Virus record (IMG/VR): IMGVR_UViG_3300034071_000801
Span: 47,405-111,404 of that record
Reading direction: 5' to 3' (one strand)
Source: a virus
Taxonomy: Duplodnaviria; Caudoviricetes
Length of the DNA: 64,000 nucleotides
Part shown: positions 1,323 through 43,699 of the stretch, one piece after another
How the letters are laid out: each line of letters opens with the position of its first letter
Numbering within the stretch: the first letter of the stretch is position 1
The notes under the pieces: model-generated
Seen by the model: only the letters and a program-made list of their open reading frames with translations
Told to the model about the DNA's origin: nothing
Database searches by the model: none
Made by a program: the position numbers and the translations under genes

Positions 1323-3286
1323 TAGAATAAATTTAATTGATTAGGTATAAATACCGTTTTTACTCTTCTGCCTTCAGTTTTAATCTTTAAGACTAATCTG
1401 TTAGCTTTTTCAATGTAGTAATCATAATTGACATTATCAACTTTACTACCTTTTGGTAAGAAATTACAAACTTTACATACCCACTCACCAGCTTCTACTT
1501 GACTTATTGCAGCAGCTCTGGTTTGACACTCTGGATTCTTAATCTTAAAGATCTTATCTCCTTCATTGGATACATAATAGCGTATGAGTTTATCATACAC
1601 TGTCTTCTCACCAGTTGACCTATTGGTCCCTTCATAGTGAAAACTCCTACTAGCTTTCTGTCTTAAGCAAAAATCATAAAGATTAGTGTGAGCACGAATT
1701 GTATGCTCAACAGGAGTACCATGTACAAAATAACTTTCAAGAGCAATAGGTATGATCCTAGCTGATTTGTTTTTATGTAATTCAAAATCAGTAAGGAAAT
1801 CACCTTTTTTCTTAATCTCTCCATTGGTCATAATTGCTAAATAGTCATTCACTGTACTAAAGATAATCTTGGAATAGTCTGTTCTCTCCAACTCATATTG
1901 AGTGATGTCACACCACCATGCATTGATTTCATGCATCAAAGGAATCATGTCTTTCTTAATCTTGATGGTTACACCATCCGTATTAGCAGAGATCACATGT
2001 ATGCCATTGGTTTCATATTTTTCAATAAGCATCATCAAGCTAAGCTCACCAGTAATTGTGGTGAACATAGTTAACTGCCTATCATATATCCAATTCTGCA
2101 TATCAGATGACTTACCATATACAGAGTTAACTGCAAGTTTAAGTGCTCCAACAATTCCTTTAATCTTCTTATCCTTCTTTGCAAAGGGTTTAAGCTCCAA
2201 TCTTTTATCAAACATCTGTTTGTATCCCCGAAGGAATTCCTTACCTAAATGGGCAGGAAACTTACCATTGTTGATAATGATAGCAGGATAATAACTAGAC
2301 ACATCCCAATCAATTATCTCATAGTCTTCATCAGCTTCGAAGATCTTAGGACCATTCTCTGTGTGAAGACCACCTTTCATAAAAGAATACACATTTCCGT
2401 GGAAATCTATATGCTCTTTGAAATCATCTTGCAGACCAAGCTGCATTTTATTAATCTTCTTTAAGAAGTCTTTTAGTTGTGGAGTTTCAAACTTTACATA
2501 CTTAGCAATGCAATTCTTTACATCAATGCTTTTTCTGAAATATCCTTTCTTAGGAAGTTCTCTGTATGTAATTCCTTTCTCTGAACAATAATACTTCTTA
2601 ATCATTTCATCCCCTATCTTAGAGTCTGAATAGTTCATACAAGGGATACCAAATTCAGCTTCAATATCTTGTCTCAGCTCTATTTGATTATTCCCTTTAT
2701 ACAGTGGATGATCTGTATCACCCATAGTTATCTTGTAGAATTCATAAGTTGCATCTACATCATTATAACAATAGTCAATGGTCATCTCCACTTCTTCTTT
2801 TGTCATATTAATTTTGGTATGATGTATAGGCATTTCTTCTATATTCTCAAGATCCATCTCAAACTCTAGTCTTTTAAGACTCACCATTCGATTCTTATTA
2901 TCATAGTGGTGTATCTTGAACAGATCTAATTGTTTGAGGCTTAATTCATGCTCTCTGTACTCAGGGAACACATCATAGTTAGCATCATGAATAACATCAG
3001 CAGCTTTCTGTGCTATTCTTGCACATATTTCTAAATTGCTTAACTCATGCCACTTATCGTAGTTTCTCAAGATCCATTCAACAACTTGACTGTCAAAGCG
3101 TAGATTATTATATCCTACCCAATAAGCATCAGCATGTTCTTCTGTATATCTAACGAATTTATCTAATTGATTCTTCCATTTAGACACTTGAAAGCTCTTA
3201 CCAGCTTTACCAGGCACCATACATACAACTAAGAATAGTTCTTGCATGGTCTCTATGTCATAAATTATTACGTCTTTGTTGTTCAT
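1322..3286 (-). CDS. DNA polymerase, family B, with 3'-5' exonuclease domain
   Basis: Exo motifs YDIET, YNNLRFD, YCYNDV; polymerase motifs DWDVSSYYP, KLAVNSVYG, SANTDG. Confidence 0.92.
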   Translation of the reverse strand: MNNKDVIIYDIETMQELFLVVCMVPGKAGKSFQVSKWKNQLDKFVRYTEEHADAYWVGYNNLRFDSQVVEWILRNYDKWHELSNLEICARIAQKAADVIHDANYDVFPEYREHELSLKQLDLFKIHHYDNKNRMVSLKRLEFEMDLENIEEMPIHHTKINMTKEEVEMTIDYCYNDVDATYEFYKITMGDTDHPLYKGNNQIELRQDIEAEFGIPCMNYSDSKIGDEMIKKYYCSEKGITYRELPKKGYFRKSIDVKNCIAKYVKFETPQLKDFLKKINKMQLGLQDDFKEHIDFHGNVYSFMKGGLHTENGPKIFEADEDYEIIDWDVSSYYPAIIINNGKFPAHLGKEFLRGYKQMFDKRLELKPFAKKDKKIKGIVGALKLAVNSVYGKSSDMQNWIYDRQLTMFTTITGELSLMMLIEKYETNGIHVISANTDGVTIKIKKDMIPLMHEINAWWCDITQYELERTDYSKIIFSTVNDYLAIMTNGEIKKKGDFLTDFELHKNKSARIIPIALESYFVHGTPVEHTIRAHTNLYDFCLRQKASRSFHYEGTNRSTGEKTVYDKLIRYYVSNEGDKIFKIKNPECQTRAAAISQVEAGEWVCKVCNFLPKGSKVDNVNYDYYIEKANRLVLKIKTEGRRVKTVFIPNQLNLF

Positions 3287-3314
3287 GTAATCTTATTTTA
3301 ATTTAAAAATTAAT

Positions 3315-3734
3315 TTATATTTTTTTAATTAAATTATTTACCAATTGCCATTCATGTTTGGTTGCTGATAATTTTTTACATAATGAATGTAAAGCATTTA
3401 AAGCATCGTCAACCCTTTGTTTTTTTGTATTGGAATTAGTTGTTGGTGTAATTGGTAATTTATCTGTTAAATCCCATTCTATTACAAGTCTGTCAGTAAC
3501 CCTACATTTTCTTTCTGATTTTTCGTAAACTACTCCTAAATCTCTTAATTGAGATAGTAATTTCCAAGCGTGTTTGACTTGAATTTGATTTTGGTCAATG
3601 TAGCTTTGTAGTTCTCCAGCAGTACAAGGCGAAGAATAAAGCATAGCATCTAATGTTCTTAATCTTAATTTTGAAAGTAATCCTTCTGCTTTAATTTGAT
3701 TGTAACAGTTAATGGAAGTTGTTCTTGTTCCCAT
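3315..3734 (-). CDS. Putative winged-helix DNA-binding protein
   Basis: 139 aa; PCTAGEL...LSQLRDLGVV...RKCRVT pattern resembles phage wHTH proteins. Confidence 0.5.
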   Translation of the reverse strand: MGTRTTSINCYNQIKAEGLLSKLRLRTLDAMLYSSPCTAGELQSYIDQNQIQVKHAWKLLSQLRDLGVVYEKSERKCRVTDRLVIEWDLTDKLPITPTTNSNTKKQRVDDALNALHSLCKKLSATKHEWQLVNNLIKKI

Positions 3735-3765: not shown

Positions 3766-3963
3766 TCATTCTCTCGTTGTGTTTTTATGATCTCTCCAAT
3801 CTAACCAAAATCCTATTCCTACAATGATGTTCATACCAAATGAGGCAAGAATTTCTGTTATGTCTTCATAGATGTTAATAGATAGGTGGATATGTCCTAC
3901 CATCCAAAAAGGCATAGCAAGATTATTCGATATCCACCTAACTAAATAATTTATAAATTTCAT
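3766..3963 (-). CDS. Small membrane protein
   Basis: 65 aa with two hydrophobic segments; a TATCTTTG -7 element (3970-3977) lies just upstream. Confidence 0.6.
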   Translation of the reverse strand: MKFINYLVRWISNNLAMPFWMVGHIHLSINIYEDITEILASFGMNIIVGIGFWLDWRDHKNTTRE

Positions 3964-4010
3964 AGCCTACAAAGATAATTAAAAATGTTATATTATTCTA
4001 ACAATTTTAA

Positions 4011-4259
4011 TTAGACTGGTTTTAATTTACGATTGATAAATTCTCTTACTACCATTCTTGTGATATGTGGTATTCTTTTTGCTTCCAATTCATAATTGAT
4101 AATGTTCTCATACTCAGTCTTACTGATTGAATACATTATACCATTTTTACTACTTGGATTCTCTGATTTAAGAATGACAGATTGTGATTTCACTTTCTTA
4201 ATTATAAAATCTGCCACCTTTCTCTCGTGTGTGTGTTTATTTGCTACTGATAATTCCAT
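4011..4259 (-). CDS. Hypothetical protein
   Basis: Track ORF 4011-4301; the ATG at 4259 (MELSV) avoids overlap with the upstream gene. Confidence 0.55.
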   Translation of the reverse strand: MELSVANKHTHERKVADFIIKKVKSQSVILKSENPSSKNGIMYSISKTEYENIINYELEAKRIPHITRMVVREFINRKLKPV

Positions 4260-4261
4260 AT

Positions 4262-4741
4262 TTAAATTTCTTCTAATCCATCGTTTAATGTTACATCCCA
4301 ATCTTCTAGATCATCATCTTCTTGAAGAAAAGATAATATAACTTTATCTTCAATTAATGTTGGTTCTAATCCTTCTTCTTCATCATCTATATCAATAGAT
4401 AAGAATCCTTGTTCTTCTCTTAATACAAAATTAATATCATCTAATGTAATGTCTCTTAATTCATCAGTATCAGGACCATCATCCCACCAACCAATTTGAT
4501 CTTGATTTATTACTACTACTTCTGGATGATATTTTGTATAACTATCAATGATGATGATTAGTTCTACTGGTGCACCATTCTTGCTCATGAACTCATCCAT
4601 GTCTTCAGGAACTTCTTCAAGCTCCCATAGTTCAACATATGGTTCAATTACACCTACAGATATTCTGTTGACAAAGAGCATACCCTCCTCTAATTCAAGA
4701 GGAAGATAGCTTTTTAATGCAATTTCTGCTGTATACCACAT
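4262..4741 (-). CDS. Hypothetical acidic protein
   Basis: 159 aa, coupled to the upstream stop. Confidence 0.7.
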   Translation of the reverse strand: MWYTAEIALKSYLPLELEEGMLFVNRISVGVIEPYVELWELEEVPEDMDEFMSKNGAPVELIIIIDSYTKYHPEVVVINQDQIGWWDDGPDTDELRDITLDDINFVLREEQGFLSIDIDDEEEGLEPTLIEDKVILSFLQEDDDLEDWDVTLNDGLEEI

Positions 4742-8245: not shown

Positions 8246-8310
8246 AATTTCTTTTGTTAATGATTAAACAATTAGGCTCCTGCTATTACACAAGAGCCCT
8301 TTTGCCCTCC

Positions 8311-8457
8311 TTAATAACCCAACTGATGAAGTTGGTTTATATTGGCTTCTACAATATACACACCCTGTGATATTGTACATGCAAACGCTATACTCATTGC
8401 GAATGCTAATTGTCTGAACTGATAAAACTCAGTTGGTTTCATTTGAATTGTTTTCAT
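8311..8457 (-). CDS. 48-aa hypothetical protein (not in ORF track)
   Basis: MKTIQMKPTEFYQFRQLAFAMSIAFACTISQGVYIVEANINQLHQLGY*; preceded by the TCCTTAATAA motif and an A-rich leader. Confidence 0.6.
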   Translation of the reverse strand: MKTIQMKPTEFYQFRQLAFAMSIAFACTISQGVYIVEANINQLHQLGY

Positions 8458-8488
8458 TGTTATTTATTATTAAGGATTAATACATAAT

Positions 8489-8518
8489 AAGAAAAGCCCC
8501 TATGTTAATAGAGGCTTT
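8489..8518 (-). terminator. Intrinsic terminator closing the RNA operon
   Basis: Minus strand AAAGCCTCTAT-TAAC-ATAGGGGCTTT followed by TCTT. Confidence 0.65.
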
Positions 8519-8677
8519 AATAGGACCTTCTCCCTTGGGAGATGTCAATTGTTGAGATTAGGAACATTTCTTCCCTATAAGTACTCAACTCCTTCTCTGC
8601 GTGGAAAGGACTTAACATTCGTGATGTGCAAACTATCCAATGTCTGTTACTGTGCTATTTGCGTCAAGTAACTGCTG

Positions 8678-8746
8678 TGATTGAGACAGGATTCGAACCT
8701 GTGTGTAAGGATATATGTCCATCGCATACCATTCTGCCACTCAATC
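8678..8746 (-). tRNA. tRNA-like element (pseudo-tRNA, anticodon undetermined)
   Basis: Acceptor stem GATTGAG/CTCAATC, D arm GCA-GAATGGTA-TGC, T arm ACAGG-TTCGAAT-CCTGT; anticodon arm ATGGA-CATATA-TCCTT has only a 6-nt loop. Confidence 0.75.
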
Positions 8747-8796
8747 TAGTGGAGGTGGGGAGATTCGCATTTTGTTAATAACTTGTTGTCACATTA

Positions 8797-8828
8797 TTTG
8801 CATATGTCTAGGACATGTTGTAGATTTA
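8797..8828 (+). promoter_or_regulatory. Putative Bacteroidota sigma-A promoter for the homing endonuclease
   Basis: TTTG-N20-TAGATTTA (one mismatch to TAnnTTTG), 23 nt before ATG 8852. Confidence 0.5.
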
Positions 8829-8851
8829 CACCATATCTTAAATTCTTTATC

Positions 8852-9271
8852 ATGACACTACAATACCTTTCTGGATTCTTTGATGCTGATGGTTCAATAT
8901 CAATGAGTAAAAGTTCTAAAAACGATACTTACAAATGTATCAAAATAGATTTTACTAATACTTACATAACAATTCTTGAAGAGATTCAAAAATACTTGTT
9001 AAATGAGCATGGTATTAAAACACATATATCAAAAAAAGCAATTAGAAAAGAAAACCATAATATTGGTTATTCTTTATCTTGTAATAGTAATCAAACTTGT
9101 TTGAAACTTTGTAAACTTATAGATTCTCATCATCCTAAGAAGTTACATCGTATAAATACAATTTTGAAATATCATGATGCAGTTACCATAAGAAATGGTA
9201 AATACACAGATAAACAAGCTACAAGAAGATTAGCCTACGAGAGACTATTCTTTCTTCCTACATTTCTGTAG
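8852..9271 (+). CDS. Single-motif LAGLIDADG homing endonuclease, antisense within the intron
   Basis: MTLQYLSGFFDADGSI LAGLIDADG helix, FTNT strand; 139 aa from ATG 8852. Confidence 0.9.
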   Translation: MTLQYLSGFFDADGSISMSKSSKNDTYKCIKIDFTNTYITILEEIQKYLLNEHGIKTHISKKAIRKENHNIGYSLSCNSNQTCLKLCKLIDSHHPKKLHRINTILKYHDAVTIRNGKYTDKQATRRLAYERLFFLPTFL

Positions 9272-9781
9272 GGATCGGACTATATCATCATCTGTTCTAG
9301 ATGTTGCTTACTGTGGGCTCACCGTAGTGTCCCTAGTCTCTGAACCTTCTCACTTCTTCCAGTGAGCTTGGCTGCTGATTGGCATATTACCCTCGCAGGT
9401 GTAACTTAGCGTTCCAGCAATTCAAGCAATTTTTAATTATACATCCCTGTATAATGAGTCCAATTTCCAAACTCCCGTGTTGCTTACTTCAAAAATACAA
9501 TTTTATACAGCTTATTTAGGGTCAAGCTAGGCTTAACGTTCCCACCACTCTATTTAATCTAATAGAGAAATCTTGAGGTAATTTAGGCTGCTAAACCAAC
9601 GATTACATCCTCATTCAATAATGAGAATACTTTGTTCATGTTAGCTTCGATTTGTGCGTTTGCTCCTAGAGCCACTACACGACTTGTGTTTTTGCCATTT
9701 AAAATAATTCACCTTAGTTTACAGTTATCTCTCTGGCTGAATTGTATAATCTATAATAACCAGTCAATTCCAGTCACCCCC

Positions 9782-10370
9782 ATTTCCCTCGTGTGAGGGC
9801 ATGTATCAATTGTTGTGTTGTTGACCAATGATCAACTTGTATTAGCACCCATCATTATAGCCTTGCAAGTTAGCCCTCGCTGCTTACTTAATGATTAGGG
9901 TCACGTAGTTAATAATACAGTTTGCAGACTGTTAAAGTATAAAATTACAAAAATTACACTTATTAACTACTTGCTTGGAACTCATTTGTGTTGTGACAAA
10001 GTGGCTTAAAAGCTTAGTCCAATCTCTTTCCTTTCTCAAGGGAACAACACATCTACCATTACTGATAGTATCTTTATGTAATGTTTAGTATTTACACTGT
10101 ATTTAAGCACAGGATTATTTCATTACAAAGGTATTCAATGTTTAGCCTGTTTGAGAGTTTATTCATTGCAACTCACAAGTGTTCCCTAACATCAGAGACC
10201 AATCCTACAAGTTTAATGTGTGTGGATGTAGGACCACATTCTTTTGTATCACTCTAGTGAGTTTAAAACTCATAATATGCATAATATAGGTAAGTTCAAT
10301 GATACGCAGCACATACATTGACTATTTAAACTGCTATGTGGCGTTTATAGTCCCCAGTGATTATACAATA
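9782..10370 (-). ncRNA. Candidate large ornate ncRNA (~590 nt)
   Basis: No ORF of 60 aa or more; many nested helices and GNRA-capped hairpins; lies between a consensus promoter and the tmRNA 5' end; boundaries approximate. Confidence 0.65.
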
Positions 10371-10376
10371 TCCCTG

Positions 10377-10408
10377 CAAATATAATCTACAGGGAGTAAC
10401 AAAACAAA
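10377..10408 (-). promoter_or_regulatory. Bacteroidota sigma-A promoter driving the RNA operon
   Basis: Perfect TTTG (10408-10405)-N20-TATATTTG (10384-10377). Confidence 0.75.
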
Positions 10409-10420
10409 TAATTAATCAAA

Positions 10421-11812
10421 TTATAATTTAATTTGTTGTTCACCTACACCTTTAGCATAGCTGAACACTTCCAATTCTTCTGTCACCTTAATCTGTTTAC
10501 CATCTGTCTCAAGACAAAGATCTCTCAACTCATCACTAAATTGCATTAATGATATGGCATTCACTTTATAAGGAAACTTCTCTGTGTTGATATCATCTTG
10601 ACCATCATTGATGATTAAGATCTCTGGCTTCTCTTCTGATAAATCAATATCAAGATTGTGAAGCTTACGATCAGCTATCTCTTTAGCTACATAATTAACC
10701 ATATCACCAATTTCTGTTCCTCCACCATTAGGATCATTAGAGAATGTTTGCCAAAATGCAATTACATCTTCTCTATCCTTTATGTGTTTGAACTCTAAGT
10801 CTTCTGGATTATGTACAAAATAACTAAAGAACACTTCAGCTTCACCTCTCATAACATACTTGAATCTGTCTATTAATATAGCATTTACCCAAATCTGTTT
10901 CTCTTCTTCATTCATACTACCAGAATAATCTAATAGAATGATAATCTTCTGAATCTGCTCTTTTCTATCAACAGGAACATTCACTGTTAAGTCTTTAGTT
11001 AAGAATTTAGTTCTGAAATTAGGAAACATCTTCTGATATAATGGCATCATGTGTATTTGAGCATAATCTCTCATAATCATTGTTGCATATTGATCAGAAT
11101 TAGCCACTATCTTCTCAGATATCTCTTTCTCCACCTTAAACTCATTACCAAACTTACCAACAAGAGATATATGATTCATAATCTCCATCTTCTTATCCTT
11201 GCTTAGTTCATTTAGATCTAATTGTTCATTGATATCTGGATCAGAATAAAGACTTCTATCAAAATCAAATGTTTTTGTTGGATCCACTTCATCATCTTCA
11301 TCATTATCATCTTTTTCTTTACCAGATGATTCTTTAAGCTTCAGATAGATAGCAATAGCTTGTTCAAGAGGTGTAAATCCTGGAACATATTGTTCATATA
11401 CAGCATCAAGCAAAGGTTTCTTCTTTAGATATTCTCCTTTGTCTTCATCAGATAAATTATCTACATCTTTATACTTATCAGCTATATATTCTGTTTCATC
11501 AATCATCTTGAAATAGCACACACGTGCTAACTCTTTGATCAAATCAATAGATGCTTGCTTCTTAACACCTCTCACCTTAGCTTTGATGTCTTTAGCACTT
11601 GGTGTTAGATAATTGACTGGATCTTTAACAAATAGATCTTCATCATTATCTTCATATGATACAACAAATGAGAAATTAGACCAAGAACTCTTGGACCATC
11701 CACTACCACCATATTTACTTTTCCAGCCTCCACTACTCTTCTTAGGAGTATAGGAAGGGGCATAATAATCACCGTAGTAATCATCATACCCATTATCCCA
11801 TAAACTTGCCAT
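10421..11812 (-). CDS. von Willebrand factor A (VWA) domain protein
   Basis: MIDAS motifs LLDYSGSM, GGGT, IINDG; coupled to the upstream AAA+ gene. Confidence 0.88.
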   Translation of the reverse strand: MASLWDNGYDDYYGDYYAPSYTPKKSSGGWKSKYGGSGWSKSSWSNFSFVVSYEDNDEDLFVKDPVNYLTPSAKDIKAKVRGVKKQASIDLIKELARVCYFKMIDETEYIADKYKDVDNLSDEDKGEYLKKKPLLDAVYEQYVPGFTPLEQAIAIYLKLKESSGKEKDDNDEDDEVDPTKTFDFDRSLYSDPDINEQLDLNELSKDKKMEIMNHISLVGKFGNEFKVEKEISEKIVANSDQYATMIMRDYAQIHMMPLYQKMFPNFRTKFLTKDLTVNVPVDRKEQIQKIIILLDYSGSMNEEEKQIWVNAILIDRFKYVMRGEAEVFFSYFVHNPEDLEFKHIKDREDVIAFWQTFSNDPNGGGTEIGDMVNYVAKEIADRKLHNLDIDLSEEKPEILIINDGQDDINTEKFPYKVNAISLMQFSDELRDLCLETDGKQIKVTEELEVFSYAKGVGEQQIKL

Positions 11813-13128
11813 TATATGAATGAAGCAATTTGAAGGTTCTTAGCAAACTTATCCATAGCTTGTGTAGCAGCTTTCACTAATTGTGAATGTATTTGTGCAA
11901 TATCATCACTCACTGCTAATCCTTTGATGTCTGTCAATTGTTTAGTAAGATCACCAAGAGCATCTCTGTACATCTTCTCATCATCTCTAGATACCAATGG
12001 TAAATGAGTTAGAGTTTCAATACTGAATGTAAGAGATGCAGATAAATCTCTGAACTTAATTGTAGCCTCAAACTTCTTAATAGCTTCAGCTATCAATGAT
12101 GGTTTCTTAGAGAACTCAGCAATAAAGCTTAATGATTCTGGTCCACATTGGTCATACACTTGATATGCTGTTACAGCTACACGTGGACTAATTGTAATAC
12201 CATTCTTTGCATACTCTTGTAACAAATAAGGAATCACTGGATCCACATTGTCTACACCAAACTTACTTTCTAGTAATTTGTTGTAGCTGATCTCTGTGTA
12301 ATTATCCCAGATAACATTCAATTCAAGAGGAAATCTTTCCATCAATGCTTTCAATGACATATTCTTTGAGAATTCATCACGAGTTCTATTAGTACAACAG
12401 ATGATGAATTTAGTCTCAATAGGAAATATCTGTGTACCATTTCTAAATGTACCACTTGATAATATATCCTTTAATTGCTCTAAGATGAAATCAGGAGCAT
12501 CAAACATCTCTTCGAATATAACAAAAGGATGATTCATAAATGAATTCTCTACAAGATATTCTATTTTACCTGTCTTCTCAAACATAGGTATATCAAGACC
12601 ACCAAACAATCTATCTGTTGTCATACCTGTACCCATTGTAATAACATAAGGTTCAATACCTTTTGATTTTAGAAAATCAAGTGTCATTTCTGATTTACCA
12701 TGTCCTCCTGGACCATATAAAACTACATTTTTACCTGTTTGAAACCCTACATTAAGGACATTTACTGTTTTGTCCATAAATACGAACTTCTCTGCTACTG
12801 GATTTGCTTTTGCTGATTTCTTTACTTGTGTTGCCATTGTTTTTTCTTTTGTTATTAAGGAATTGTTTAATTTAATTTGTTCTAATACTTCTTCTATGTT
12901 TACTTCTTCTATTTCTTTGATGATACAATTGTTTGATCGGAACACCCAACCATTTATTTCAAATGTATCATCTCTCTCAATGTATTTAATGAATTTATCA
13001 GGAACCTCTTGTTCCATATAATCATTCATATCACCACCTTCAGCCCATTCATCTGGTATATCATATTCATCATTCCAAAGACCATCATCTTTAAACTCTT
13101 GTTCACTTTTAAATCTATATTTACTCAT
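11812..13128 (-). CDS. MoxR/RavA-like AAA+ ATPase with acidic N-terminal extension
   Basis: Walker A GPGGHGKS, Walker B VIFEE, sensor CTN, ALMERF; likely starts ATG 13128 and/or internal ATG 12837. Confidence 0.88.
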   Translation of the reverse strand: MSKYRFKSEQEFKDDGLWNDEYDIPDEWAEGGDMNDYMEQEVPDKFIKYIERDDTFEINGWVFRSNNCIIKEIEEVNIEEVLEQIKLNNSLITKEKTMATQVKKSAKANPVAEKFVFMDKTVNVLNVGFQTGKNVVLYGPGGHGKSEMTLDFLKSKGIEPYVITMGTGMTTDRLFGGLDIPMFEKTGKIEYLVENSFMNHPFVIFEEMFDAPDFILEQLKDILSSGTFRNGTQIFPIETKFIICCTNRTRDEFSKNMSLKALMERFPLELNVIWDNYTEISYNKLLESKFGVDNVDPVIPYLLQEYAKNGITISPRVAVTAYQVYDQCGPESLSFIAEFSKKPSLIAEAIKKFEATIKFRDLSASLTFSIETLTHLPLVSRDDEKMYRDALGDLTKQLTDIKGLAVSDDIAQIHSQLVKAATQAMDKFAKNLQIASFI

Positions 13129-13137
13129 AGCTTTGAT

Positions 13138-13164
13138 ATAAAAGAGAGCCATTACAGCTCTCTT
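13138..13164 (-). terminator. Intrinsic terminator-like hairpin
   Basis: AAGAGAGC-TGTAATG-GCTCTCTT followed by TTAT. Confidence 0.55.
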
Positions 13165-38506: not shown

Positions 38507-41500
38507 ATGGCAGAAGAGCAACAACAAGGTAATATTAGACAAGAGTATAATAATGGTACTGTTGGTTTAAATATGGATCAAACTTTGAACCAGATTAAAC
38601 CAGGTACATTAACTTATGCCTTAAATGCTGCTTTAGAAAACTTTGATTCTAGTTCTGTTAATTATCAGAATGAACAAGGTAATGAATTATGTGTTACATT
38701 TCCTAAAGGATATATATTAATTGGTACACATTTTATTAATGAGCAAAACAAACATATATTCTACATAACCAATCCTGATACAAATGGTAGTCAGATTGGA
38801 TATATGGATAACAATGATTGTATCTATCATATATTAGTTAGTGCATCATGTCTTAACTTCAACATCAATAATCCTATACATAAAACTGTACATAAGATTA
38901 CAAATTGTACAACAGAGATATATTGGACAGATGGATTAAATCCAAGAAGATATTTAGATATTAATAATATACCAAAACTATTACAAATAGGTAGTACGCT
39001 TTGTGATCCAATATACACTGATGAGTTAGATTGTAATCAACTTAAATTACAACCAAACTTTAGTATTCCACAAATTGCTGTAACAGATATTACTACAGGA
39101 GGAGAACTTGTTGCTGGTACATACCAATTTGCTGCTCAGTATTCTGATGCTTCTGGTAATCCTTATACATCATATTATTCTGTTACTAATCCTACACCTA
39201 TTGCAGATCCTTTCATAACAACAGTTAATTATAATTATACTGTTGGAAAATCTATTGTTCTTAGTCTATCTGAATTAGATATATCAGGACAATATCAATA
39301 TTTCAATTTAGCTGTTATTAAAACAGTTAATGGAATAACTTCTGTAGAATTAGTAGGAACATATTTTATTGAACAAGCTAATGATCAAATTACTTATACA
39401 GGTCAAAATAAAACTCAGATAAGATTAACTATCAATGATATATTTGAGAAGTTTCCTTACTACGATATAGCACAAGATCTTACATCTGTACAAGATATTC
39501 TTGTATGGGATAATCTTACATCCATAGATAGAATTAACTATCAAAGTATTGCTTCTGGTATAAATCTATTATGGGAAACATATAAGATTCCTGCTAATGA
39601 AAACTATGCTGATGAATTAAATGCTACAAACTTACGTGGATATCTACGTGATGAAGTGTATGCTATTGAAATTGTATTCTTATTAAAAAATGGAAAGCAA
39701 ACAGATGGGTTTCATATTCCTGGAAGAGTAAAAGGAATTATTGAAAACACAACTCCAGATGTAGTTGATACAGATCCTGATTTCATTGGGCAACCAGAAC
39801 CAGGTACAAACTATAGTCCTTATTGGAAAATATATAATACAGCAAGTGTTCTTGGTACTGCTCCAGAATATTCACCAGATCCTACATACAAAGGACCATA
39901 TCAATTTGGTGAATTTGCTTATTGGGAATCTACAGATGAATATCCTTGTAATGTAGATGTATGGGGTGATCTCGCTGGTCAACCAATTAGACATCATAAG
40001 TTTCCAGATATCCTTGTTAGTCCAATGTTTGAATCAAAACTATTCTCTAGTCCTGGAGCAATGGTAATGGGTAATGATGCTGTATTCCCTATTGGAATCA
40101 AAATAAATAATGATGAGATAAAAAGTCTTATCAGTGTATCTAATCTAACTACTGAACAAAAAGATGATATAGTTGGATACAAAATAGTAAGAGGAGATAG
40201 AGGAACAAATAAATCTATTGTAGCAAAAGGTATATTAAGAAATGTAGGAACATATGAAAGAGAAAAACAACAATATTTCTATCCAAACTATCCATACAAT
40301 GATCTTCATCAAGATCCTTTCTTAAATCAAACTAATAATGCTTGGACACAATTGTGTGAGCCATTTGTTGTAACTATAACATTCTTAGATTCAGATCCTA
40401 ATGGAGGACCTAGTTATGCAGAAATAGAATACACTAGTTGTAACAATGATAAAATAACAACAGAGAAATTATATAATGTAGGAACTTATCCAATTTGTGC
40501 TATAACCAAACCTATTATCAAAGCTGGTAAAGGTACTTCTGCATATGGTAATTATGAGATATGGAGAATTGCTTCTACTGGTAATGCTTTTCAATTTTGT
40601 GCTGGATGGAAAGCTCAATGGACAGATGAGTTTGGAGAGATAAAAGAAGAATGGGTAGAAGGTTGGCCAACTAATTCTAGTTATACAATTCATGTAAAAC
40701 TTGGAACAGAACCTATATGTATTGATAATTGTGATTCATGTGGACAAAGACGTGATTTTATAGAAATTGTAAATGCTACAAATCAATGTAAGGTACCTAT
40801 ACCACAACCTCCAATATCAGATAATGATTCATACAGACAAATATTTAATTCACCTGAAACATCTTTTGGACAACCATTCTTAGGAGCTATTCTTAAATTA
40901 GAGAATGTAATATTTGGTGGAGGTAAAGGACATTTTGTTCAAGTGAAAGGTAATGCAAAATATAAACTTCTTACAAAAGAAGCACAAGAAGATGCACTTA
41001 AATCTGCACAAGAAGTTGGATCTTTAAGTGTAGGATTTAATGCTACAGCAATGTTTACTGTATACCAAGCATATTTAACAATATATGTAAATGGTATTAC
41101 AAGAAGAAACTATGCTCAATCATTTAACTCTATAGCTGATTATAACTATTCAGAATCTATTCCTAATGATCTTGGTGTTAAACAAAGAAACTTAGATATA
41201 AAAAGATATTTAATTCCTGGAGTTGAATCTGTAGGAGATATACATCCTGTTAATAATTATAGAAGAGAATCTTCAGTTTATTTAAGAACATCACTTTTTA
41301 GAGAAGATGGTGTTACACCAGTACCAGCAATACCATTTCCTAGTAATAGTCCTAATATGCTTATAGGAGGATCTCCTAAAATTACAGATTATTCAAGATT
41401 TACTATTGGAAGTACAACAGCATGTTCTTCTCCTGAGAAAGAACAAGACTTACGTGCAGTTTCTTATTATGCTTCATTAAAAAATCAATTTGTAAATCAA

Positions 41501-43699
41501 TGGGGACAATTATATTCCTATGAAACAATTGATACAGGATTCCAAAGAAGTATTAACTCAGTAGGATCTGATGTAGTATTTGGTGGAGATACATTCATTT
41601 CTCGTTTTGCATTTAAAACTAAGCTTCCATTCTTTATTGATAATAGAGTGAATGCTCCTGATGATAGTGATATATTCTATGATGAGATTGGTAATATAGC
41701 TTATCCAAAATACTGGCATTCTGCTAGATCTATACTAAGTGACTACACTGTTACAGCTGGTGCAACAGGTGTATTAACAAATATCATATCATACAAAGCA
41801 CATAACTTTGATTGTCCTAATAGTCAATTACCTGCTCCTCCAGAATCTAATCCTAATAGAACATATTATGATGGATACTTTTATCTATTTGCATATGGTG
41901 TGCCTAACTTCTATTGTGAGAGTTCTTACAATACAGATCTTAGACAAGCCTTTAATAATAGAGAAGGAGATTTCTGGCCACATGTAAGTACTAACATTCC
42001 TGATGATTGGGTACAAGAAGATTTTGTATCTATAGCAAATGACAATACATATACATACAATGTAACTTTTTCTAAACAGAATAAAGAAAATACATTTACA
42101 CATCTTCCTCCAGATTGGACAGCTCAATTGTGTTATACATATTATCCATTTAGAGCTATATATTCTGATTCACAAAATATTGATTCAGATAATAAAGTGA
42201 ATAGTTGGTTAACGTATAGAGCAATTTCATATTTTGATTTTCCTCAAAACTTTGGAGATCTTACATCATTAGATGGTATTCAGAATAGAGCTATATTAGC
42301 TAGGTTTGAGAATAAGAGTTTAATGTATAATAATCTTCTTACAATTGATACAAGTAATCCACAAGCTGCATATGTAGGTAACCCAACATTATTTAAAGGT
42401 GCTCCTCCAATTGACTTTGCGGAAACAGATCTTGGATATGTAGGAAGTCAGAATAAGTTCTTATTGAAAATACCACAAGGACAAATAACTGTAGATGCTA
42501 AGAGAGGACAAGTGTTTTTAATCTCTGGTACTGAGTCTGTAGATTTATCTGCATTTGGTTCTGGGATGAATAGATTCTTTACAGATCATTTAGCTTTTGA
42601 AATTCTTAGATATTATCCAAATGTAGATACAGATAATAACTTTACAGGTATAGGATTACATGGTGTATATGATAGTAAGTTTGATAGAGTTATTATATCA
42701 AAGCTTGATTATATTCCATTAGATAGTAATATTAAATATGATGCTACACTAAGAGAATTCTATATTGAAGAAATTGTAAATGAACTTACATTTAGAACAC
42801 AAGTGTATTTGACAGATCCAGATTATTTCTGTAATAAGTCTTGGACACTTTCATATAATGTAAATACTAAAACATGGATATCATTTCATAGTTACATTCC
42901 TAATTTCTATATAGCTGAAAACAATTTCTTCTATTCAGGAATTAATGGATGTTGTGAAGACTTTGATTTAGTTGCAGGAGAAATAGTTCCTACACCTAGT
43001 ACAACTACTACTACATCTAGTAGCACATCATCAACTACAACAACCAGTACTACTGTGGCTCCTTTAGATTGTACATTAGTTGGAACAGTAGTTCTAACAA
43101 ATTGTACACTTCAAGGAACAGCAGTAGTTACAGTACCTCCAGTTCCACCACCTTGTACAAGACCTACTACATTGAATACATATACATTAATTACAGGATA
43201 TAATATAATAGCTCCACCTTCAACTGTTGTTTCAACAGGAAGTCAAGTGAACGCATGTGCTGCTATAGCATATGTAACAACACATTCAGATTTTACATAT
43301 ACATCAATTCAAGGAGAAGCATTTATTCTTTCTGTAGGTCAAACTATATATGCAAGTAATGGTACAAATGATTGTTCAGTAATACCTGATGGTTGGTATT
43401 TTACAGATGAAAGTGCACATACAACAACAAATGTATATCATGTTGTATCAGGAATAATTACTCAAATAGTAACATGTGTTCCTACTACAACTACTACCAC
43501 TACATTTTCTTGTACATCTTACACTATTAGTAAATCTACAGTAGGTGTAGTTTCAGTAACATATACAGATTGTACAGGTGTAGTTACAAGTGCAAGTGTT
43601 GGTGAAGTAGGAGGAGGACCTTCATTCACAACATTCTGTGCAAGATGTTGTATATCTACTCCACCAGAAGTAACATTAACTAATAACGGACCTTGTTAA
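38507..43699 (+). CDS. Tail stabilization (muzzle/nozzle) protein with Thr/Cys-rich C-terminal extension
   Basis: 1730 aa; GLNMD, YWTDGLNPRRY, FGGDTFISRF, SWTLSY...WISFHSY motifs typical of crAss-like stabilization proteins. Confidence 0.75.
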   Translation: MAEEQQQGNIRQEYNNGTVGLNMDQTLNQIKPGTLTYALNAALENFDSSSVNYQNEQGNELCVTFPKGYILIGTHFINEQNKHIFYITNPDTNGSQIGYMDNNDCIYHILVSASCLNFNINNPIHKTVHKITNCTTEIYWTDGLNPRRYLDINNIPKLLQIGSTLCDPIYTDELDCNQLKLQPNFSIPQIAVTDITTGGELVAGTYQFAAQYSDASGNPYTSYYSVTNPTPIADPFITTVNYNYTVGKSIVLSLSELDISGQYQYFNLAVIKTVNGITSVELVGTYFIEQANDQITYTGQNKTQIRLTINDIFEKFPYYDIAQDLTSVQDILVWDNLTSIDRINYQSIASGINLLWETYKIPANENYADELNATNLRGYLRDEVYAIEIVFLLKNGKQTDGFHIPGRVKGIIENTTPDVVDTDPDFIGQPEPGTNYSPYWKIYNTASVLGTAPEYSPDPTYKGPYQFGEFAYWESTDEYPCNVDVWGDLAGQPIRHHKFPDILVSPMFESKLFSSPGAMVMGNDAVFPIGIKINNDEIKSLISVSNLTTEQKDDIVGYKIVRGDRGTNKSIVAKGILRNVGTYEREKQQYFYPNYPYNDLHQDPFLNQTNNAWTQLCEPFVVTITFLDSDPNGGPSYAEIEYTSCNNDKITTEKLYNVGTYPICAITKPIIKAGKGTSAYGNYEIWRIASTGNAFQFCAGWKAQWTDEFGEIKEEWVEGWPTNSSYTIHVKLGTEPICIDNCDSCGQRRDFIEIVNATNQCKVPIPQPPISDNDSYRQIFNSPETSFGQPFLGAILKLENVIFGGGKGHFVQVKGNAKYKLLTKEAQEDALKSAQEVGSLSVGFNATAMFTVYQAYLTIYVNGITRRNYAQSFNSIADYNYSESIPNDLGVKQRNLDIKRYLIPGVESVGDIHPVNNYRRESSVYLRTSLFREDGVTPVPAIPFPSNSPNMLIGGSPKITDYSRFTIGSTTACSSPEKEQDLRAVSYYASLKNQFVNQWGQLYSYETIDTGFQRSINSVGSDVVFGGDTFISRFAFKTKLPFFIDNRVNAPDDSDIFYDEIGNIAYPKYWHSARSILSDYTVTAGATGVLTNIISYKAHNFDCPNSQLPAPPESNPNRTYYDGYFYLFAYGVPNFYCESSYNTDLRQAFNNREGDFWPHVSTNIPDDWVQEDFVSIANDNTYTYNVTFSKQNKENTFTHLPPDWTAQLCYTYYPFRAIYSDSQNIDSDNKVNSWLTYRAISYFDFPQNFGDLTSLDGIQNRAILARFENKSLMYNNLLTIDTSNPQAAYVGNPTLFKGAPPIDFAETDLGYVGSQNKFLLKIPQGQITVDAKRGQVFLISGTESVDLSAFGSGMNRFFTDHLAFEILRYYPNVDTDNNFTGIGLHGVYDSKFDRVIISKLDYIPLDSNIKYDATLREFYIEEIVNELTFRTQVYLTDPDYFCNKSWTLSYNVNTKTWISFHSYIPNFYIAENNFFYSGINGCCEDFDLVAGEIVPTPSTTTTTSSSTSSTTTTSTTVAPLDCTLVGTVVLTNCTLQGTAVVTVPPVPPPCTRPTTLNTYTLITGYNIIAPPSTVVSTGSQVNACAAIAYVTTHSDFTYTSIQGEAFILSVGQTIYASNGTNDCSVIPDGWYFTDESAHTTTNVYHVVSGIITQIVTCVPTTTTTTTFSCTSYTISKSTVGVVSVTYTDCTGVVTSASVGEVGGGPSFTTFCARCCISTPPEVTLTNNGPC

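What the first reader, a model, noticed from the sequence alone, without database searches (positions are those of the whole stretch)
8489..10408. A self-contained phage non-coding RNA operon centred on ribosome rescue
Seen, in minus-strand order: perfect host promoter (10408-10377), ~590-nt structured RNA, intron-split tmRNA, pseudo-tRNA 3 nt later, ~150-nt structured segment, terminator. About 1.9 kb has no sense-strand protein gene of 60 aa or more in an otherwise densely coding genome, and no smpB was recognised in the window. Inference: one precursor processed by RNase P and self-splicing into several RNAs that remodel host translation or counter tRNA/ribosome-targeting defences. I do not know of this combination being described.
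Basis: partly seen in the sequence, partly recalled or inferred. Interest (0 to 1): 0.88.

Follow-up and report, generated by a model that had tools for sequence, protein, structure and literature searches.

The report
Phage RNA-gene island with intron-split tmRNA
A lake phage related to crAss-like phages carries a 1.9-kb stretch of RNA genes only: a ribosome-rescue RNA (tmRNA) split by a mobile self-splicing intron, a tRNA-shaped element that cannot decode, and a widespread folded phage RNA of unknown function.

Summary
Removing bases 9469-8768 (minus strand) gives a 331-nt tmRNA, and a related phage carries exactly this intron-less allele. The intron is a 702-nt group I intron in the T-loop. 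A 69-nt tRNA-like element with a 6-nt anticodon loop follows 3 nt after the tmRNA. Then come a covarying about 100-nt RNA and a terminator-like hairpin. The 111-kb genome has no smpB.

The "590-nt structured RNA" is not one unit (fold z -1.57). It is a mosaic that includes a roughly 244-nt RNA family, "motif X". This family has strong covariation, occurs in at least 120 viral stretches and is absent from Rfam 15. It probably matches one of the two unexplained abundant non-coding RNAs of phage phi14:2.

In 29 related loci the modules are shuffled; only the tmRNA is near-constant (22 of 29). A single precursor cut at tRNA-like punctuation is plausible but unproven. The claimed anti-defence role has no evidence.

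Intron-form tmRNA is already in print. This scan has flagged similar RNA arrays and intron-split phage tmRNAs on other DNA.

The parts
10377..10408 (-). Bacteroidota-type promoter-like pattern: TTTG (10408-10405), 20-nt spacer, TATATTTG (10384-10377)
   Evidence: The pattern match is. Both boxes are kept in most of the 23 related loci aligned. The consensus itself is recalled, not looked up. It is the only one of five -7-like boxes in the unit with a properly spaced TTTG.
10371..10395 (-). Conserved 11-bp hairpin right after the stop of the VWA-like gene. It overlaps the -7 box and looks like a terminator.
   Evidence: Found in the terminator-like scan. It is kept in about 20 of 23 aligned loci, with compensatory changes in L027 and L013. 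L010, which lacks the island, has a different plain terminator hairpin here.
10238..10370 (-). Module A1: conserved first ~130 nt of the putative transcript
   Evidence: BLAST identity 78-98% in L005, L016, L004, L018, L012, L020, L025 and L008; alignment. In L005 and L016 this module precedes a membrane-protein and lipoprotein gene pair instead.
10149..10237 (-). Module A2: hairpin-bearing spacer
   Evidence: In L025, L015 and L020 it lies downstream of the tmRNA; in L005 it lies upstream of the tmRNA, as here. The modules are therefore shuffled.
9905..10148 (-). Motif X RNA, an uncatalogued phage RNA family. Layout: 5' box 10148-10130; hairpin P1 10068-10053 with a GNRA loop; long-range helix P2 10051-10045 with 9993-9987; hairpin P3 10044-10028 with the invariant loop CUUGAGAAA; invariant tail from 9986; helix P5 9970-9960 with 9915-9905.
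   Evidence: In 14 sequences, 15 of 24 pairs show changes on both sides and 97.3% of cells pair, against 35-46% when partners are slid. In 67 distinct further sequences, 16 of 17 pairs do so and 96.1% pair. The 5' box is present in 98 of 110 distinct copies. P5 is supported in 28 of 111 distinct copies, against 0 and 2 in controls. There is no credible Rfam match.
9782..9850 (-). Module A4: tmRNA leader with two hairpins directly before the tmRNA 5' end
   Evidence: Conserved in L004, L011, L022, L014, L020, L012, L019 and L013. Compensatory variants of both hairpins are visible in L013 and L019 (read by eye).
9470..9781 (-). tmRNA 5' exon: acceptor 5' strand, pseudoknots, tag reading frame, and the first part of the T-arm ending ...GGGAGTT
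   Evidence: ARAGORN on the in-silico spliced RNA. BLAST gives 97-99% identity to the intron-less tmRNAs of L016 and L005, which Rfam RF00023 scores at 56.6 and 49.9 bits.
8768..9469 (-). Group I intron, 702 nt, inserted between T-loop bases 2 and 3 (TT|CGAAT). The last exon base U pairs with G in P1, and the intron ends in G8768.
   Evidence: Rfam RF00028 covers the full model at 9479-9256. The natural empty site is in L016. The same intron (92% identical) sits at the same site in L014 and L017, whose 5' exons are only 73-74% identical to the window's.
8852..9271 (+). LAGLIDADG homing endonuclease gene, 139 aa with a single motif (LSGFFDADGS), antisense to the intron. It lies in the intron's 3' part after P9, and its last 16 nt overlap the intron core.
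   Evidence: Pfam LAGLIDADG_3 E 1.3e-9 and LAGLIDADG_1 E 1e-6. It has 134 homologues. The ORF is intact in L014 and L017, with 18 synonymous and 15 non-synonymous codon differences from L014.
8750..8767 (-). tmRNA 3' exon: rest of the T-loop, T-stem 3' strand, acceptor 3' strand and discriminator A8750. No CCA is encoded; the next bases are CTA at 8749-8747.
   Evidence: The acceptor stem reads G1-C, G2-C, G3-U, G4-C, G5-C, U6-A, G7-C directly from the sequence.
8678..8746 (-). tRNA-like element. Its acceptor, D and T arms are intact. Its anticodon arm has a U-U mismatch and a 6-nt loop.
   Evidence: Rfam RF00005, 47.9 bits. ARAGORN finds nothing here and calls the 97% and 93% identical copies in L006 and L020 'tRNA-???' with a 2-nt anticodon. 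It belongs to a family of 12 elements with conserved arms and a variable middle.
8578..8677 (-). Module F1: conserved RNA of two to three hairpins that begins at the 3' end of the tRNA-like element
   Evidence: RNAalifold on 9 sequences finds 3 pairs with compensatory changes. A frame-shifting indel in relatives rules out the 33-aa ORF (alignment). In 7 of 10 copies it starts directly at a tRNA-like or tmRNA 3' end.
8485..8577 (-). Module F2, ending in a terminator-like hairpin (8518-8493) with a T-rich tail
   Evidence: Terminator scan. It is 100% identical in L005, 99% in L016 and 86% in L019; the 3' part is 97% identical in L027.

Best explanation
The stretch is a hypervariable island of RNA genes in the early-gene arm of a phi14:2-like phage of the order Crassvirales, probably from a lake.

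Shown:
- It holds a tmRNA gene whose T-loop is split by a mobile group I intron. The intron carries its homing endonuclease gene on the opposite strand.
- It holds a tRNA-derived element that keeps the acceptor, D and T arms but has no usable anticodon loop.
- It holds several separately conserved folded RNAs. Motif X is a widespread phage RNA family.

Inferred mechanism:
1. Transcription starts just after the VWA-like gene and ends at the hairpin at 8518-8493.
2. The intron splices itself out and rebuilds the T-loop.
3. Host RNase P and RNase Z cut at the tmRNA and at the tRNA-like element. This frees the tmRNA 3' end, leaving only a 3-nt trailer, and frees the 5' end of F1. In relatives the same kind of cut would free the 5' end of motif X.
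4. The host adds CCA. Host alanyl-tRNA synthetase charges the tmRNA through its G3-U70 pair, and host SmpB delivers it to stalled ribosomes.
5. Rescued proteins receive a long, phage-specific tag that ends in LAA.

The endonuclease spreads the intron among tmRNA alleles. Together with other homing endonuclease genes seen in relatives, it drives the shuffling of the island. The function of motif X and F1 is not known.
For: tmRNA and intron:
-.
- The intron-less allele in L016 joins exactly the two exon ends, and Rfam accepts it as tmRNA.
- The intron's guide sequence changes with the exon: the window has exon GAGUU with guide GGACUC, and L017 has exon GGGUU with guide GGACC (read by eye).

Intron mobility:
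- The introns are 92% identical while the 5' exons are 73-74% identical.
- In 20 viral loci with endonuclease relatives, a group I core abuts the gene's 3' end on the opposite strand in 10. It is on the same strand in 1. In 2 loci the endonuclease gene stands free beside a tmRNA. The other 7 show no intron.

The tag is translated:
- A 15-codon core is conserved in 14 phage tmRNAs. Changes are biased to third codon positions, for example 2, 3 and 10 changes at positions 1, 2 and 3 against phage FpV4.

tRNA-like element:
- All 12 family members keep 7 of 7 acceptor pairs, in three different sequence versions. The region between the D and T arms varies from about 27 to about 100 nt.

Punctuation:
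- F1 begins at the last base of a tRNA-like element or tmRNA in 7 of 10 copies.
- In 6 of the 98 distinct motif X copies that have the 5' box, a tRNA or tRNA-like 3' end lies 3-6 nt before that box.

Single unit:
- There is no terminator-like site on the sense strand between 10371 and 8518.
- There is no second properly spaced promoter pattern.

Expression in a relative:
- In phi14:2, two long intergenic regions are transcribed above most genes from the earliest time point, and their level persists (bioRxiv 10.1101/2020.03.07.982082, sections 4-6 read).
- By GenBank coordinates, the two matching long gaps hold motif X and the tmRNA.

Partner protein: no smpB in the phage.
Against: - No read-level data show a single precursor, splicing, or the processed ends. 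The RNA libraries I could lay are contigs only.
- The promoter pattern is no more frequent than chance in the window (3 against 3.93). It lies inside a hairpin that could simply terminate the upstream genes.
- In phi14:2 the early class is made by the virion polymerase, and no common upstream motif was found. The host-type promoter may therefore be irrelevant.
- The modules are not a fixed set. Among 29 related loci, motif X is in 13 and F1 in 9. A tRNA-like element lies in the island in 8 of the 29 loci scanned with Rfam, and the intron is in 2.
- L016 has the same tmRNA with no tRNA-like element after it, so that element is not required for tmRNA maturation.
- In the window, the putative motif X pseudoknot has 2 mismatches in 7 pairs, and it shows no covariation anywhere.
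Confidence: 0.6

Rival explanations
1. The modules are separate genes, each with its own start recognised by the virion-packaged phage RNA polymerase. They are not pieces of one precursor. The pattern at 10408-10377 is mainly the terminator of the upstream MoxR/VWA genes.
For: - phi14:2 early transcripts come from the virion polymerase and share no upstream motif.
- The modules occur in different orders and subsets in relatives, as independent cassettes would.
- Motif X has no same-strand tRNA or tmRNA found by ARAGORN in the fetched stretch in 41 of 77 copies.
- The hairpin at 10395-10371 fits the terminator pattern, and L010 has a plain terminator at the same place.
Against: - Modules abut tRNA-like or tmRNA ends to the base. 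Processing explains this; separate starts do not.
- Both promoter boxes are conserved, including the -33 TTTG, which lies outside the hairpin.
- There are no internal terminator-like sites.
Confidence: 0.3
2. The tRNA-like element and the flanking modules are leftovers of homing-endonuclease-driven recombination and decaying tRNA genes. They have no function of their own, and only the tmRNA matters.
For: - The island ranges from 58 to about 4,870 nt among relatives. It is full of homing endonuclease genes of the LAGLIDADG, GIY-YIG and HNH-like kinds (classes read by eye from the ORF sequences).
- L012 manages with promoter, leader and tmRNA only, in 655 nt.
- At another site, 5 kb upstream of the VWA gene, L017 has a true tRNA-Leu. 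L014, L011 and L010 have oversized or undecodable versions there.
Against: - Neutral decay would not keep 7 of 7 acceptor pairs in 12 of 12 copies across three sequence versions while the middle diverges freely.
- Motif X and F1 show compensatory base changes.
- Motif X is present in at least 120 viral stretches.
Confidence: 0.12
3. One reading: the RNAs act together to remodel host translation or to counter host defences that cut tRNAs or stall ribosomes.
For: - A phage tmRNA with a conserved, unusually long tag and no smpB of its own must work on host ribosomes.
- tRNA-shaped RNAs without an anticodon could in principle occupy tRNA-binding enzymes.
- Motif X lies on the same strand as tRNA or tmRNA genes within 2.5 kb in 31 of 77 copies. 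In only 2 copies does the locus hold opposite-strand ones.
Against: - No defence or anti-defence gene was tied to the island in any call.
- The elements do not co-occur as a set.
- An anticodon-nuclease decoy would need the anticodon loop, which is exactly the part that is lost.
Confidence: 0.15
4. The phage tmRNA is a competitor that blocks host trans-translation rather than a working rescuer. A tag-less tmRNA-like RNA of mycobacteriophage DS6A is reported to do this.
For: [quoted passage not shown]
Against: - Here the tag frame is complete, ends in LAA and evolves like a coding sequence.
- The acceptor stem has the G3-U70 pair.
- The intron-less twin allele passes the tmRNA covariance model.
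Confidence: 0.08

Closest known systems
Intron-form tmRNA genes (group I intron in the T-psi-C loop; tmRNA database expansion, PMC11915505; the first case in Clostridium botulinum is recalled)
   Same: - A group I intron sits in the T-loop. The base before the splice site is U paired with G in P1, and the intron ends in G.
- Some of these introns carry LAGLIDADG genes: 23 of 844, of which 4 lie after P9.
- The paper's subsite 3 is found only in the class Bacteroidia. That fits the TT|C site here, if I read their numbering correctly; the figure is not held.
   Different: - This one is in a phage genome, not a bacterial one.
- The endonuclease gene is on the opposite strand. The passages I read do not state orientation.
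- The tmRNA is embedded in a larger island of RNA genes.
- The paper searched RefSeq viruses. I could not see its supplements, so I cannot say whether any phage intron form is listed there.
The two abundant 'long non-coding RNAs' of Cellulophaga phage phi14:2 (Drobysheva et al., bioRxiv 10.1101/2020.03.07.982082)
   Same: - phi14:2 is a relative. Its tmRNA shares a 92% identical 50-nt stretch with the window.
- It has a motif X copy at 97.1 bits and a tmRNA, in two neighbouring long gaps separated by one gene. This is the layout that the paper describes.
   Different: - The paper leaves the functions open and, in the text I read, does not name either RNA.
- phi14:2 has no intron.
- My mapping of their 'g004-g005' and 'g005-g006' junctions onto these gaps is an inference.
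Antisense homing endonuclease gene I-DirII in a Didymium rDNA group I intron (cited in PMC3073962)
   Same: An endonuclease gene sits inside a group I intron of a non-coding RNA gene, on the opposite strand. It therefore needs its own promoter.
   Different: - That case is a eukaryotic nuclear intron, whose endonuclease is, as I recall, of the His-Cys box family. This one is a bacterial-virus LAGLIDADG gene.
- I found no -7 box for it on the plus strand.
tRNA punctuation of polycistronic transcripts (animal mitochondria; bacterial tRNA-linked small RNAs such as 3' external spacers), recalled
   Same: tRNA-shaped elements directly abut other RNAs, so RNase P and RNase Z cuts would release the neighbours.
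   Different: - Here the punctuating element is not a working tRNA, and the released products are non-coding RNAs of a phage.
- Processing has not been shown.
GOLLD and ROOL large phage-associated RNAs (Rfam)
   Same: They are folded RNAs of unknown function in phages, often near tRNA genes. A GOLLD copy lies about 1.2 kb from an intron-split tmRNA in locus L170.
   Different: Motif X does not match either model. It is much smaller, about 244 nt.

Membership tests
tmRNA (Rfam RF00023; intron gene form) | tRNA-like domain: a 7-bp acceptor stem with G3-U70 and a T-arm | tested here: met
   The acceptor stem was read. The T-arm GGGAG / TTCGAAT / CTCCC forms only after joining 9470 to 8767.
tmRNA (Rfam RF00023; intron gene form) | Tag reading frame with a resume codon and a stop, ending in a hydrophobic degron-like tail | tested here: met
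   ARAGORN finds a GCA resume codon and a 26-aa tag ending in GLAA followed by a stop. The substitution pattern is that of a coding sequence.
tmRNA (Rfam RF00023; intron gene form) | Covariance-model score above the curated threshold | tested here: inconclusive
   The window itself gives no RF00023 match because of the intron, and I could not hand a joined sequence to Rfam. The natural intron-less allele L016 (97.4% identical 5' exon, identical 3' exon) scores 56.6 bits against a threshold of 47.
tmRNA (Rfam RF00023; intron gene form) | Works with SmpB | not testable with these tools
   There is no SmpB in the phage record. The host protein would be needed.
Group I intron (Rfam RF00028) | Catalytic core matches the model above threshold | tested here: met
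   94.8 bits against a threshold of 50, covering model positions 1-253.
Group I intron (Rfam RF00028) | U before the 5' splice site paired with G in P1; G as the last intron base; exact restoration of the host gene | tested here: met
   U9470 and G8768. The empty-site allele L016 joins the same two bases.
Group I intron (Rfam RF00028) | Self-splicing | not testable with these tools
   An RNA-library contig of a relative runs across the exon-intron border, and another breaks exactly at 9470 and continues into a 3'-exon-like sequence. Either could equally come from DNA or from an intron-less allele.
LAGLIDADG homing endonuclease | LAGLIDADG domain with the acidic residue of the motif | tested here: met
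   Pfam PF14528 38.6 bits and PF00961 30.0 bits, both above their cut-offs. The motif SGFFDADGS is invariant in 12 aligned homologues. Cleavage activity was not tested.
tRNA (decoding) | Cloverleaf with a 7-nt anticodon loop | tested here: not met
   The Rfam tRNA model matches (47.9 bits), but the loop has 6 nt. ARAGORN gives no call here and a 2-nt 'anticodon' in the twin copies. I therefore file it as tRNA-like, not as a tRNA.
Any Rfam 15 family, for motif X and F1 | A match at or near a family's threshold | tested here: not met
   The permissive scan of 8300-10600 gives only chance-level hits there: SL2 at 22.6 bits, E 2.3, against a threshold of 41.
Bacteroidota primary-sigma promoter (-33 TTTG / -7 TAnnTTTG; consensus recalled) | Both boxes at about 19-21 nt spacing, upstream of a transcript start | tested here: inconclusive
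   The pattern is present and conserved, but the count is at chance level. All 3 matches in the window do lie between genes and point the right way. The transcript start is not testable here.

The most novel reading that the evidence does not exclude
Phages of Bacteroidota run a cassette system for non-coding RNA genes. Anticodon-less tRNA-shaped elements would serve as universal cut marks, so that any RNA cassette dropped next to one is released by host RNase P and RNase Z. Examples of such cassettes are the tmRNA, motif X and F1. Homing endonucleases would shuffle the cassettes between phages. Motif X, the most widespread cassette, would then be a free, very abundant, trans-acting phage RNA with a still unknown target in the infected cell.
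Probability: 0.3. Interest if true: 0.8.

Novelty: new variant of a known kind. Interest (0 to 1): 0.6.

Why it matters
- It gives names to two unexplained, highly abundant RNAs of the only well-studied non-gut crAss-like phage. One is very probably its tmRNA. The other contains a folded RNA family present in at least 120 viral stretches.
- It shows that the intron form of the tmRNA gene, so far described from bacteria, also circulates among phages, together with an endonuclease gene placed on the opposite strand.
- The tRNA-shaped elements that have lost their anticodon but keep every feature RNase P needs suggest a simple, testable way for phages to mature arrays of non-coding RNAs.
- The long phage-specific tag, conserved at the peptide level, suggests that phage tmRNAs do more than add a degradation signal.
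- All of this can be tested in the phi14:2 and Cellulophaga baltica laboratory system.

Tried and rejected
- **One 590-nt ornate RNA.** Rejected: fold z -1.57 and patchy module-wise conservation.
- **Small proteins in the gap.** The 37-aa ORF at 10318-10205 runs past the end of conserved module A1. The 33-aa ORF in F1 is frame-shifted in relatives. A short ORF starting at the motif X tail ATG varies from 6 to 38 aa in relatives, with conservation ending at the RNA motif (read by eye). All were rejected as genes.
- **Motif X as a cellular RNA.** The exact-pattern scan of 185,579 species genomes gave 2 hits, both on MAG contigs.
- **Motif X pseudoknot.** All 7 pairs are invariant except in the window, so it can be neither supported nor refuted.
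- **Pairing of the motif X 5' box with helix P2 or with the tail.** Looked for by eye; no covariation, dropped.
- **Known ribozyme classes for motif X** (hammerhead, twister, pistol, hatchet, HDV-like). No Rfam match, and the topology does not fit what I recall of them.
- **Promoter for the endonuclease gene.** There is no TAnnTTTG on the plus strand in 8300-10480. The sigma-70-like site at 8825-8853 overlaps the start codon.
- **RNA libraries X19-X22**:
  - Short contigs matching the motif X core (10028-10081) carry word depths of 124,608 in X21, 1,844 in X22 and 922 in X19. The tmRNA 5' part reaches 95, 9.6 and 706 in the same runs.
  - The tool warns that contig depth sums all relatives and is no measure of expression, and that DNA may be present. 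I use this only as a hint.
  - No contig spans the whole stretch, and parts without cover prove nothing.
  - One X19 contig ends exactly at 9470 and continues into a 3'-exon-like sequence. One X20 contig runs across the exon-intron border. Both fit either splicing or allelic DNA.
- **DNA runs X2-X18.** Only the run that holds all the words, the possible source, is labelled lake water.
- **Supplements.** The supplementary tables of Drobysheva et al. and of PMC11915505 were closed. They may hold the exact coordinates of the phi14:2 RNAs and any phage intron-form tmRNAs.
- **Literature.** Searches on crAss-like phages and tmRNA and on phi14 non-coding RNA found no paper that names these RNAs. I read only listings, apart from the three papers cited above.


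Full report
**What the window is**

The window is the last 64 kb of a 111,404-base IMG/VR virus record rated 97% complete. The closest named relative is Cellulophaga phage phi14:2 (Crassvirales, Steigviridae), which shares a 92% identical 50-nt stretch inside the tmRNA. Flavobacterium phages of the FpV4 group share 80% identity over the first 150 nt of the tmRNA. The finding lies on the minus strand. It sits between a MoxR-like ATPase / weak VWA gene pair (13152-10421) and a small 48-aa ORF (8457-8311) that is conserved in nearly all relatives.

**Checking the observation**

- Rfam finds a full-length group I intron core at 9479-9256 (94.8 bits, E 3.9e-23) and a tRNA-like match at 8746-8678 (47.9 bits).
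- ARAGORN finds neither a tmRNA nor this tRNA in the window. The permissive Rfam scan also finds no tmRNA.
- Reading the strand shows a tmRNA 5' end at 9781 and a 3' acceptor strand ending at A8750.
- I joined the exons in a script at three trial junctions. Only 9470 joined to 8767 gives an ARAGORN tmRNA: 331 nt, tag ANAQIEANMNKVFSLLNEDVIVGLAA.
- The acceptor stem has the G3-U70 pair that alanyl-tRNA synthetase uses (established knowledge).
- No sense-strand ORF in the unit exceeds 37 aa.
- SmpB is absent from the whole record.
- The terminator-like hairpin at 8518-8493 and the promoter-like pattern at 10408-10377 are both present.

**The intron**

The related locus L016 carries the same tmRNA without the intron. 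Its sequence runs ...GGGAGTT then CGAATCTCCCC..., exactly the two exon ends of the window. Rfam scores that allele as tmRNA at 56.6 bits.

Loci L014 and L017 carry the same intron (702 and 703 nt, 92% identical) at the same T-loop position, but in a tmRNA whose 5' exon is only 73-74% identical to the window's. An intron that is better conserved than its host gene, together with an empty-site allele, is the signature of a mobile intron.

The last exon base is U, paired with G in P1, and the last intron base is G. The guide sequence differs between the window and L017 in step with the exon (by eye).

The tmRNA database paper reports 883 intron-form tmRNA sequences (PMC11915505, passages read). 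All have the intron in the T-loop, at four subsites. Subsite 3 is found only in the class Bacteroidia. The window's site (TT|CGAAT) is subsite 3 if I read their numbering correctly; the figure is not held.

The plus strand holds an ORF at 8852-9271 whose product has a single LAGLIDADG motif (Pfam E 1.3e-9 and 1e-6).

- It has 134 homologues of about 139 aa.
- It is intact in L014 and L017, with 18 synonymous against 15 non-synonymous codon differences from L014.
- It lies antisense to the intron, in the part after P9, and its end overlaps the intron core by 16 nt.

This layout is typical of the family. I scanned 20 viral loci that encode relatives:

| Arrangement | Loci |
|---|---|
| Group I core abutting the gene's 3' end, opposite strand | 10 |
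| Group I core on the same strand | 1 |
| Gene free-standing beside a tmRNA | 2 |
| No intron found | 7 |

 An antisense endonuclease gene in a group I intron of a non-coding RNA gene has a eukaryotic precedent, I-DirII (PMC3073962, passage read). I found no promoter box for the gene on the plus strand.

**The tRNA-like element**

It begins 3 nt after the tmRNA discriminator base. Its acceptor, D and T arms are regular. Its anticodon stem has a U-U mismatch and its loop has 6 nt. ARAGORN calls the near-identical copies in L006 and L020 'tRNA-???' with a two-base anticodon.

Relatives hold a family of such elements, 12 of which I examined:
- All keep 7 of 7 acceptor pairs, in three different sequence versions.
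- They share a leucine-type D-arm and a T-arm.
- The part between the D and T arms ranges from about 27 to about 100 nt.

At another site, L017 has a true tRNA-Leu where L014, L011 and L010 have oversized or undecodable versions. The parts that RNase P and RNase Z recognise are kept, and the decoding part is free to vary. That argues for selection on shape, not on decoding.

The element is not essential for the tmRNA, because L016 lacks it.

**The flanking RNA**

The 589 nt between the promoter pattern and the tmRNA do not fold better than shuffles to a notable degree (z -1.57). BLAST against 29 loci anchored on the VWA gene shows a mosaic:
- A1 (10370-10238) is conserved in eight loci.
- A2 lies downstream of the tmRNA in three relatives.
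- A4 (9850-9782) is the leader directly before the tmRNA.
- The central block is the one I call motif X.

In L005 and L016, a membrane-protein and lipoprotein gene pair is inserted after A1.

**Motif X**

The core is at 10068-9973. It consists of a hairpin with a GNRA loop, a long-range helix, a hairpin with an invariant loop, a variable hairpin and an invariant tail.

| Test | Result |
|---|---|
| 14 sequences found by BLAST, including phi14:2 | 15 of 24 pairs change on both sides; 97.3% of cells pair, against 35-46% when partners are slid |
| Same pattern, 185,579 species genomes | 2 contigs, both from MAGs |
| Covariance model on 75 further viral loci | 77 matches; 16 of 17 pairs change on both sides; 96.1% pair. 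This alignment is fitted to the model, which favours it |
| 5' box | Present in 98 of 110 distinct copies |
| 3' helix (window 9970-9960 with 9915-9905) | Exact complement in 28 of 111 distinct copies, against 0 and 2 in controls |

The RNA therefore spans about 10148-9905. Rfam 15 has nothing like it.

The loop-tail pseudoknot is invariant, so it is untested. In the window it has two mismatches.

Same-strand tRNA or tmRNA genes lie within 2.5 kb in 31 of 77 copies, 22 of them downstream of the motif. Only 2 copies have opposite-strand ones in the locus.

**Module F1**

F1 (8677-8578) has three compensatory pairs in nine sequences. In 7 of 10 copies it begins directly at a tRNA-like or tmRNA 3' end.

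**Co-occurrence in relatives**

Counts are over the 29 loci anchored on the VWA gene.

| Element | Loci |
|---|---|
| tmRNA downstream of the VWA gene | 22 |
| Motif X | 13 |
| F1 | 9 |
| tRNA-like element in the island (all 29 scanned with Rfam) | 8 |
| The intron | 2 |

The tmRNA count breaks down as follows: ARAGORN finds 14, Rfam finds 17 including 3 that ARAGORN missed, 2 are intron forms, and 3 are seen by BLAST only. The other 7 are L010, which lacks the whole island, and six more distant loci.

L006 has the window's order without the intron: motif X, tmRNA, tRNA-like element, F1. None of the 29 loci has the full combination. The elements are a shuffled set of cassettes around a near-constant tmRNA.

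**Promoter, terminator and transcription**

The pattern TTTG-N17-22-TAnnTTTG occurs 3 times in the window, against 3.93 in shuffles. All three matches lie between genes and point towards the genes that follow.

The match at 10408-10377 and the 11-bp hairpin that overlaps it are both conserved in about 20 of 23 aligned loci. The hairpin shows compensatory changes. The site may therefore be a terminator, a promoter, or both.

There is no other properly spaced promoter pattern and no terminator-like site inside the unit.

In phi14:2 the early genes are made by the virion-packaged polymerase with no common upstream motif, and the middle and late genes by the host enzyme. Two long intergenic regions, the 'g004-g005 and g005-g006 junctions', are transcribed above most genes from the first time point and do not decline. 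Their function was left open. By GenBank coordinates, phi14:2 has two long gaps separated by one gene:
- 2905-3589 holds motif X.
- 3911-4601 holds the tmRNA.

The match to the paper's regions is my inference, because its supplementary tables were closed.

**The tag**

The tag is 24-32 aa in these phages. A core, Q-I/V-x-A-N-M-x-x-V/A-F-S-L-L/I, is shared by 13 of 14 tags, including that of the unrelated FpV4. Differences are concentrated at third codon positions. The tag therefore appears to be translated, and its sequence matters beyond the terminal LAA.

**Earlier notes of this scan**

Other agents flagged arrays of uncatalogued RNA modules in front of phage tmRNAs. They pointed to the phi14:2 paper, which I then read. 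They also flagged oversized tRNA-shaped RNAs and intron-split phage tmRNAs on other DNA. This kind of locus has therefore been found before in the scan. The antisense endonuclease and the empty-site allele are specific to this report.

**Verdict**

The parts are real and mostly as described. The intron-split tmRNA is a known gene form in a new setting. The tRNA-like punctuation and motif X are the more interesting parts. The single-precursor model is reasonable (about 0.5), and the anti-defence reading is unsupported.

Noticed in passing
L020 2953-3800, L022 7225-8060, L031 7180-8010: In three relatives the VWA-like gene itself appears to be interrupted near residue 405 by a second group I intron. 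Its core resembles the tmRNA intron (86% over 65 nt). In L020 and L022 it carries a 221-aa LAGLIDADG gene on the sense strand; L031 has only a 104-aa ORF with such a motif.
   Followed up: partly
L170 300-714 (+): A GOLLD RNA (Rfam, 328 bits) lies about 1.2 kb from an intron-split tmRNA with an antisense LAGLIDADG gene in another viral contig.
   Followed up: no
L005 7627-8651, L016 5839-6863; also L009, L022, L027, L031, L032: A cassette of a ~55-60-aa membrane protein and a ~267-281-aa lipoprotein-like protein sits in the island between the conserved hairpin or module A1 and the RNA modules in seven relatives. It is absent from the window.
   Followed up: no
L010 7393-7450: One relative (73% identical VWA protein) lacks the whole RNA island. 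A plain terminator hairpin is followed at once by the conserved 48-aa ORF.
   Followed up: partly
window 9663-9583 (-) and tmRNAs of L004-L027, L003: The phage tmRNA tags are unusually long (24-32 aa) and share a conserved core that evolves like a coding sequence. This hints at a function of the tag beyond a degradation signal.
   Followed up: partly
window 11812-13152 and 10421-11812 (-): A MoxR-like AAA ATPase (Pfam bpMoxR, E 4.9e-13) is paired with a protein that has only a weak, below-threshold VWA match. The pair lies directly upstream of the RNA island and is conserved in all 29 anchored loci.
   Followed up: no
window 53657-64000 (+), 38507-43699, 46425-50846: Very large ORFs (more than 3,448 aa with an open end, 1,730 aa and 1,473 aa) lie on the opposite arm, as expected for the virion RNA polymerase region of crAss-like phages. 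They were not analysed.
   Followed up: no
L005 8791-8919 and 9454-9560: In the closest relative that has the same tmRNA tag, motif X gives only two weak partial matches on either side of a 176-aa endonuclease-like ORF. It looks as if the RNA gene had been split by an insertion.
   Followed up: no
L014 2169-2275, L011 2322-2416, L010 781-876, L017 2241-2326: At a second site about 5 kb upstream of the VWA gene, one relative has a true tRNA-Leu(AAG). Three others have oversized or undecodable tRNA-like versions at the same place.
   Followed up: partly
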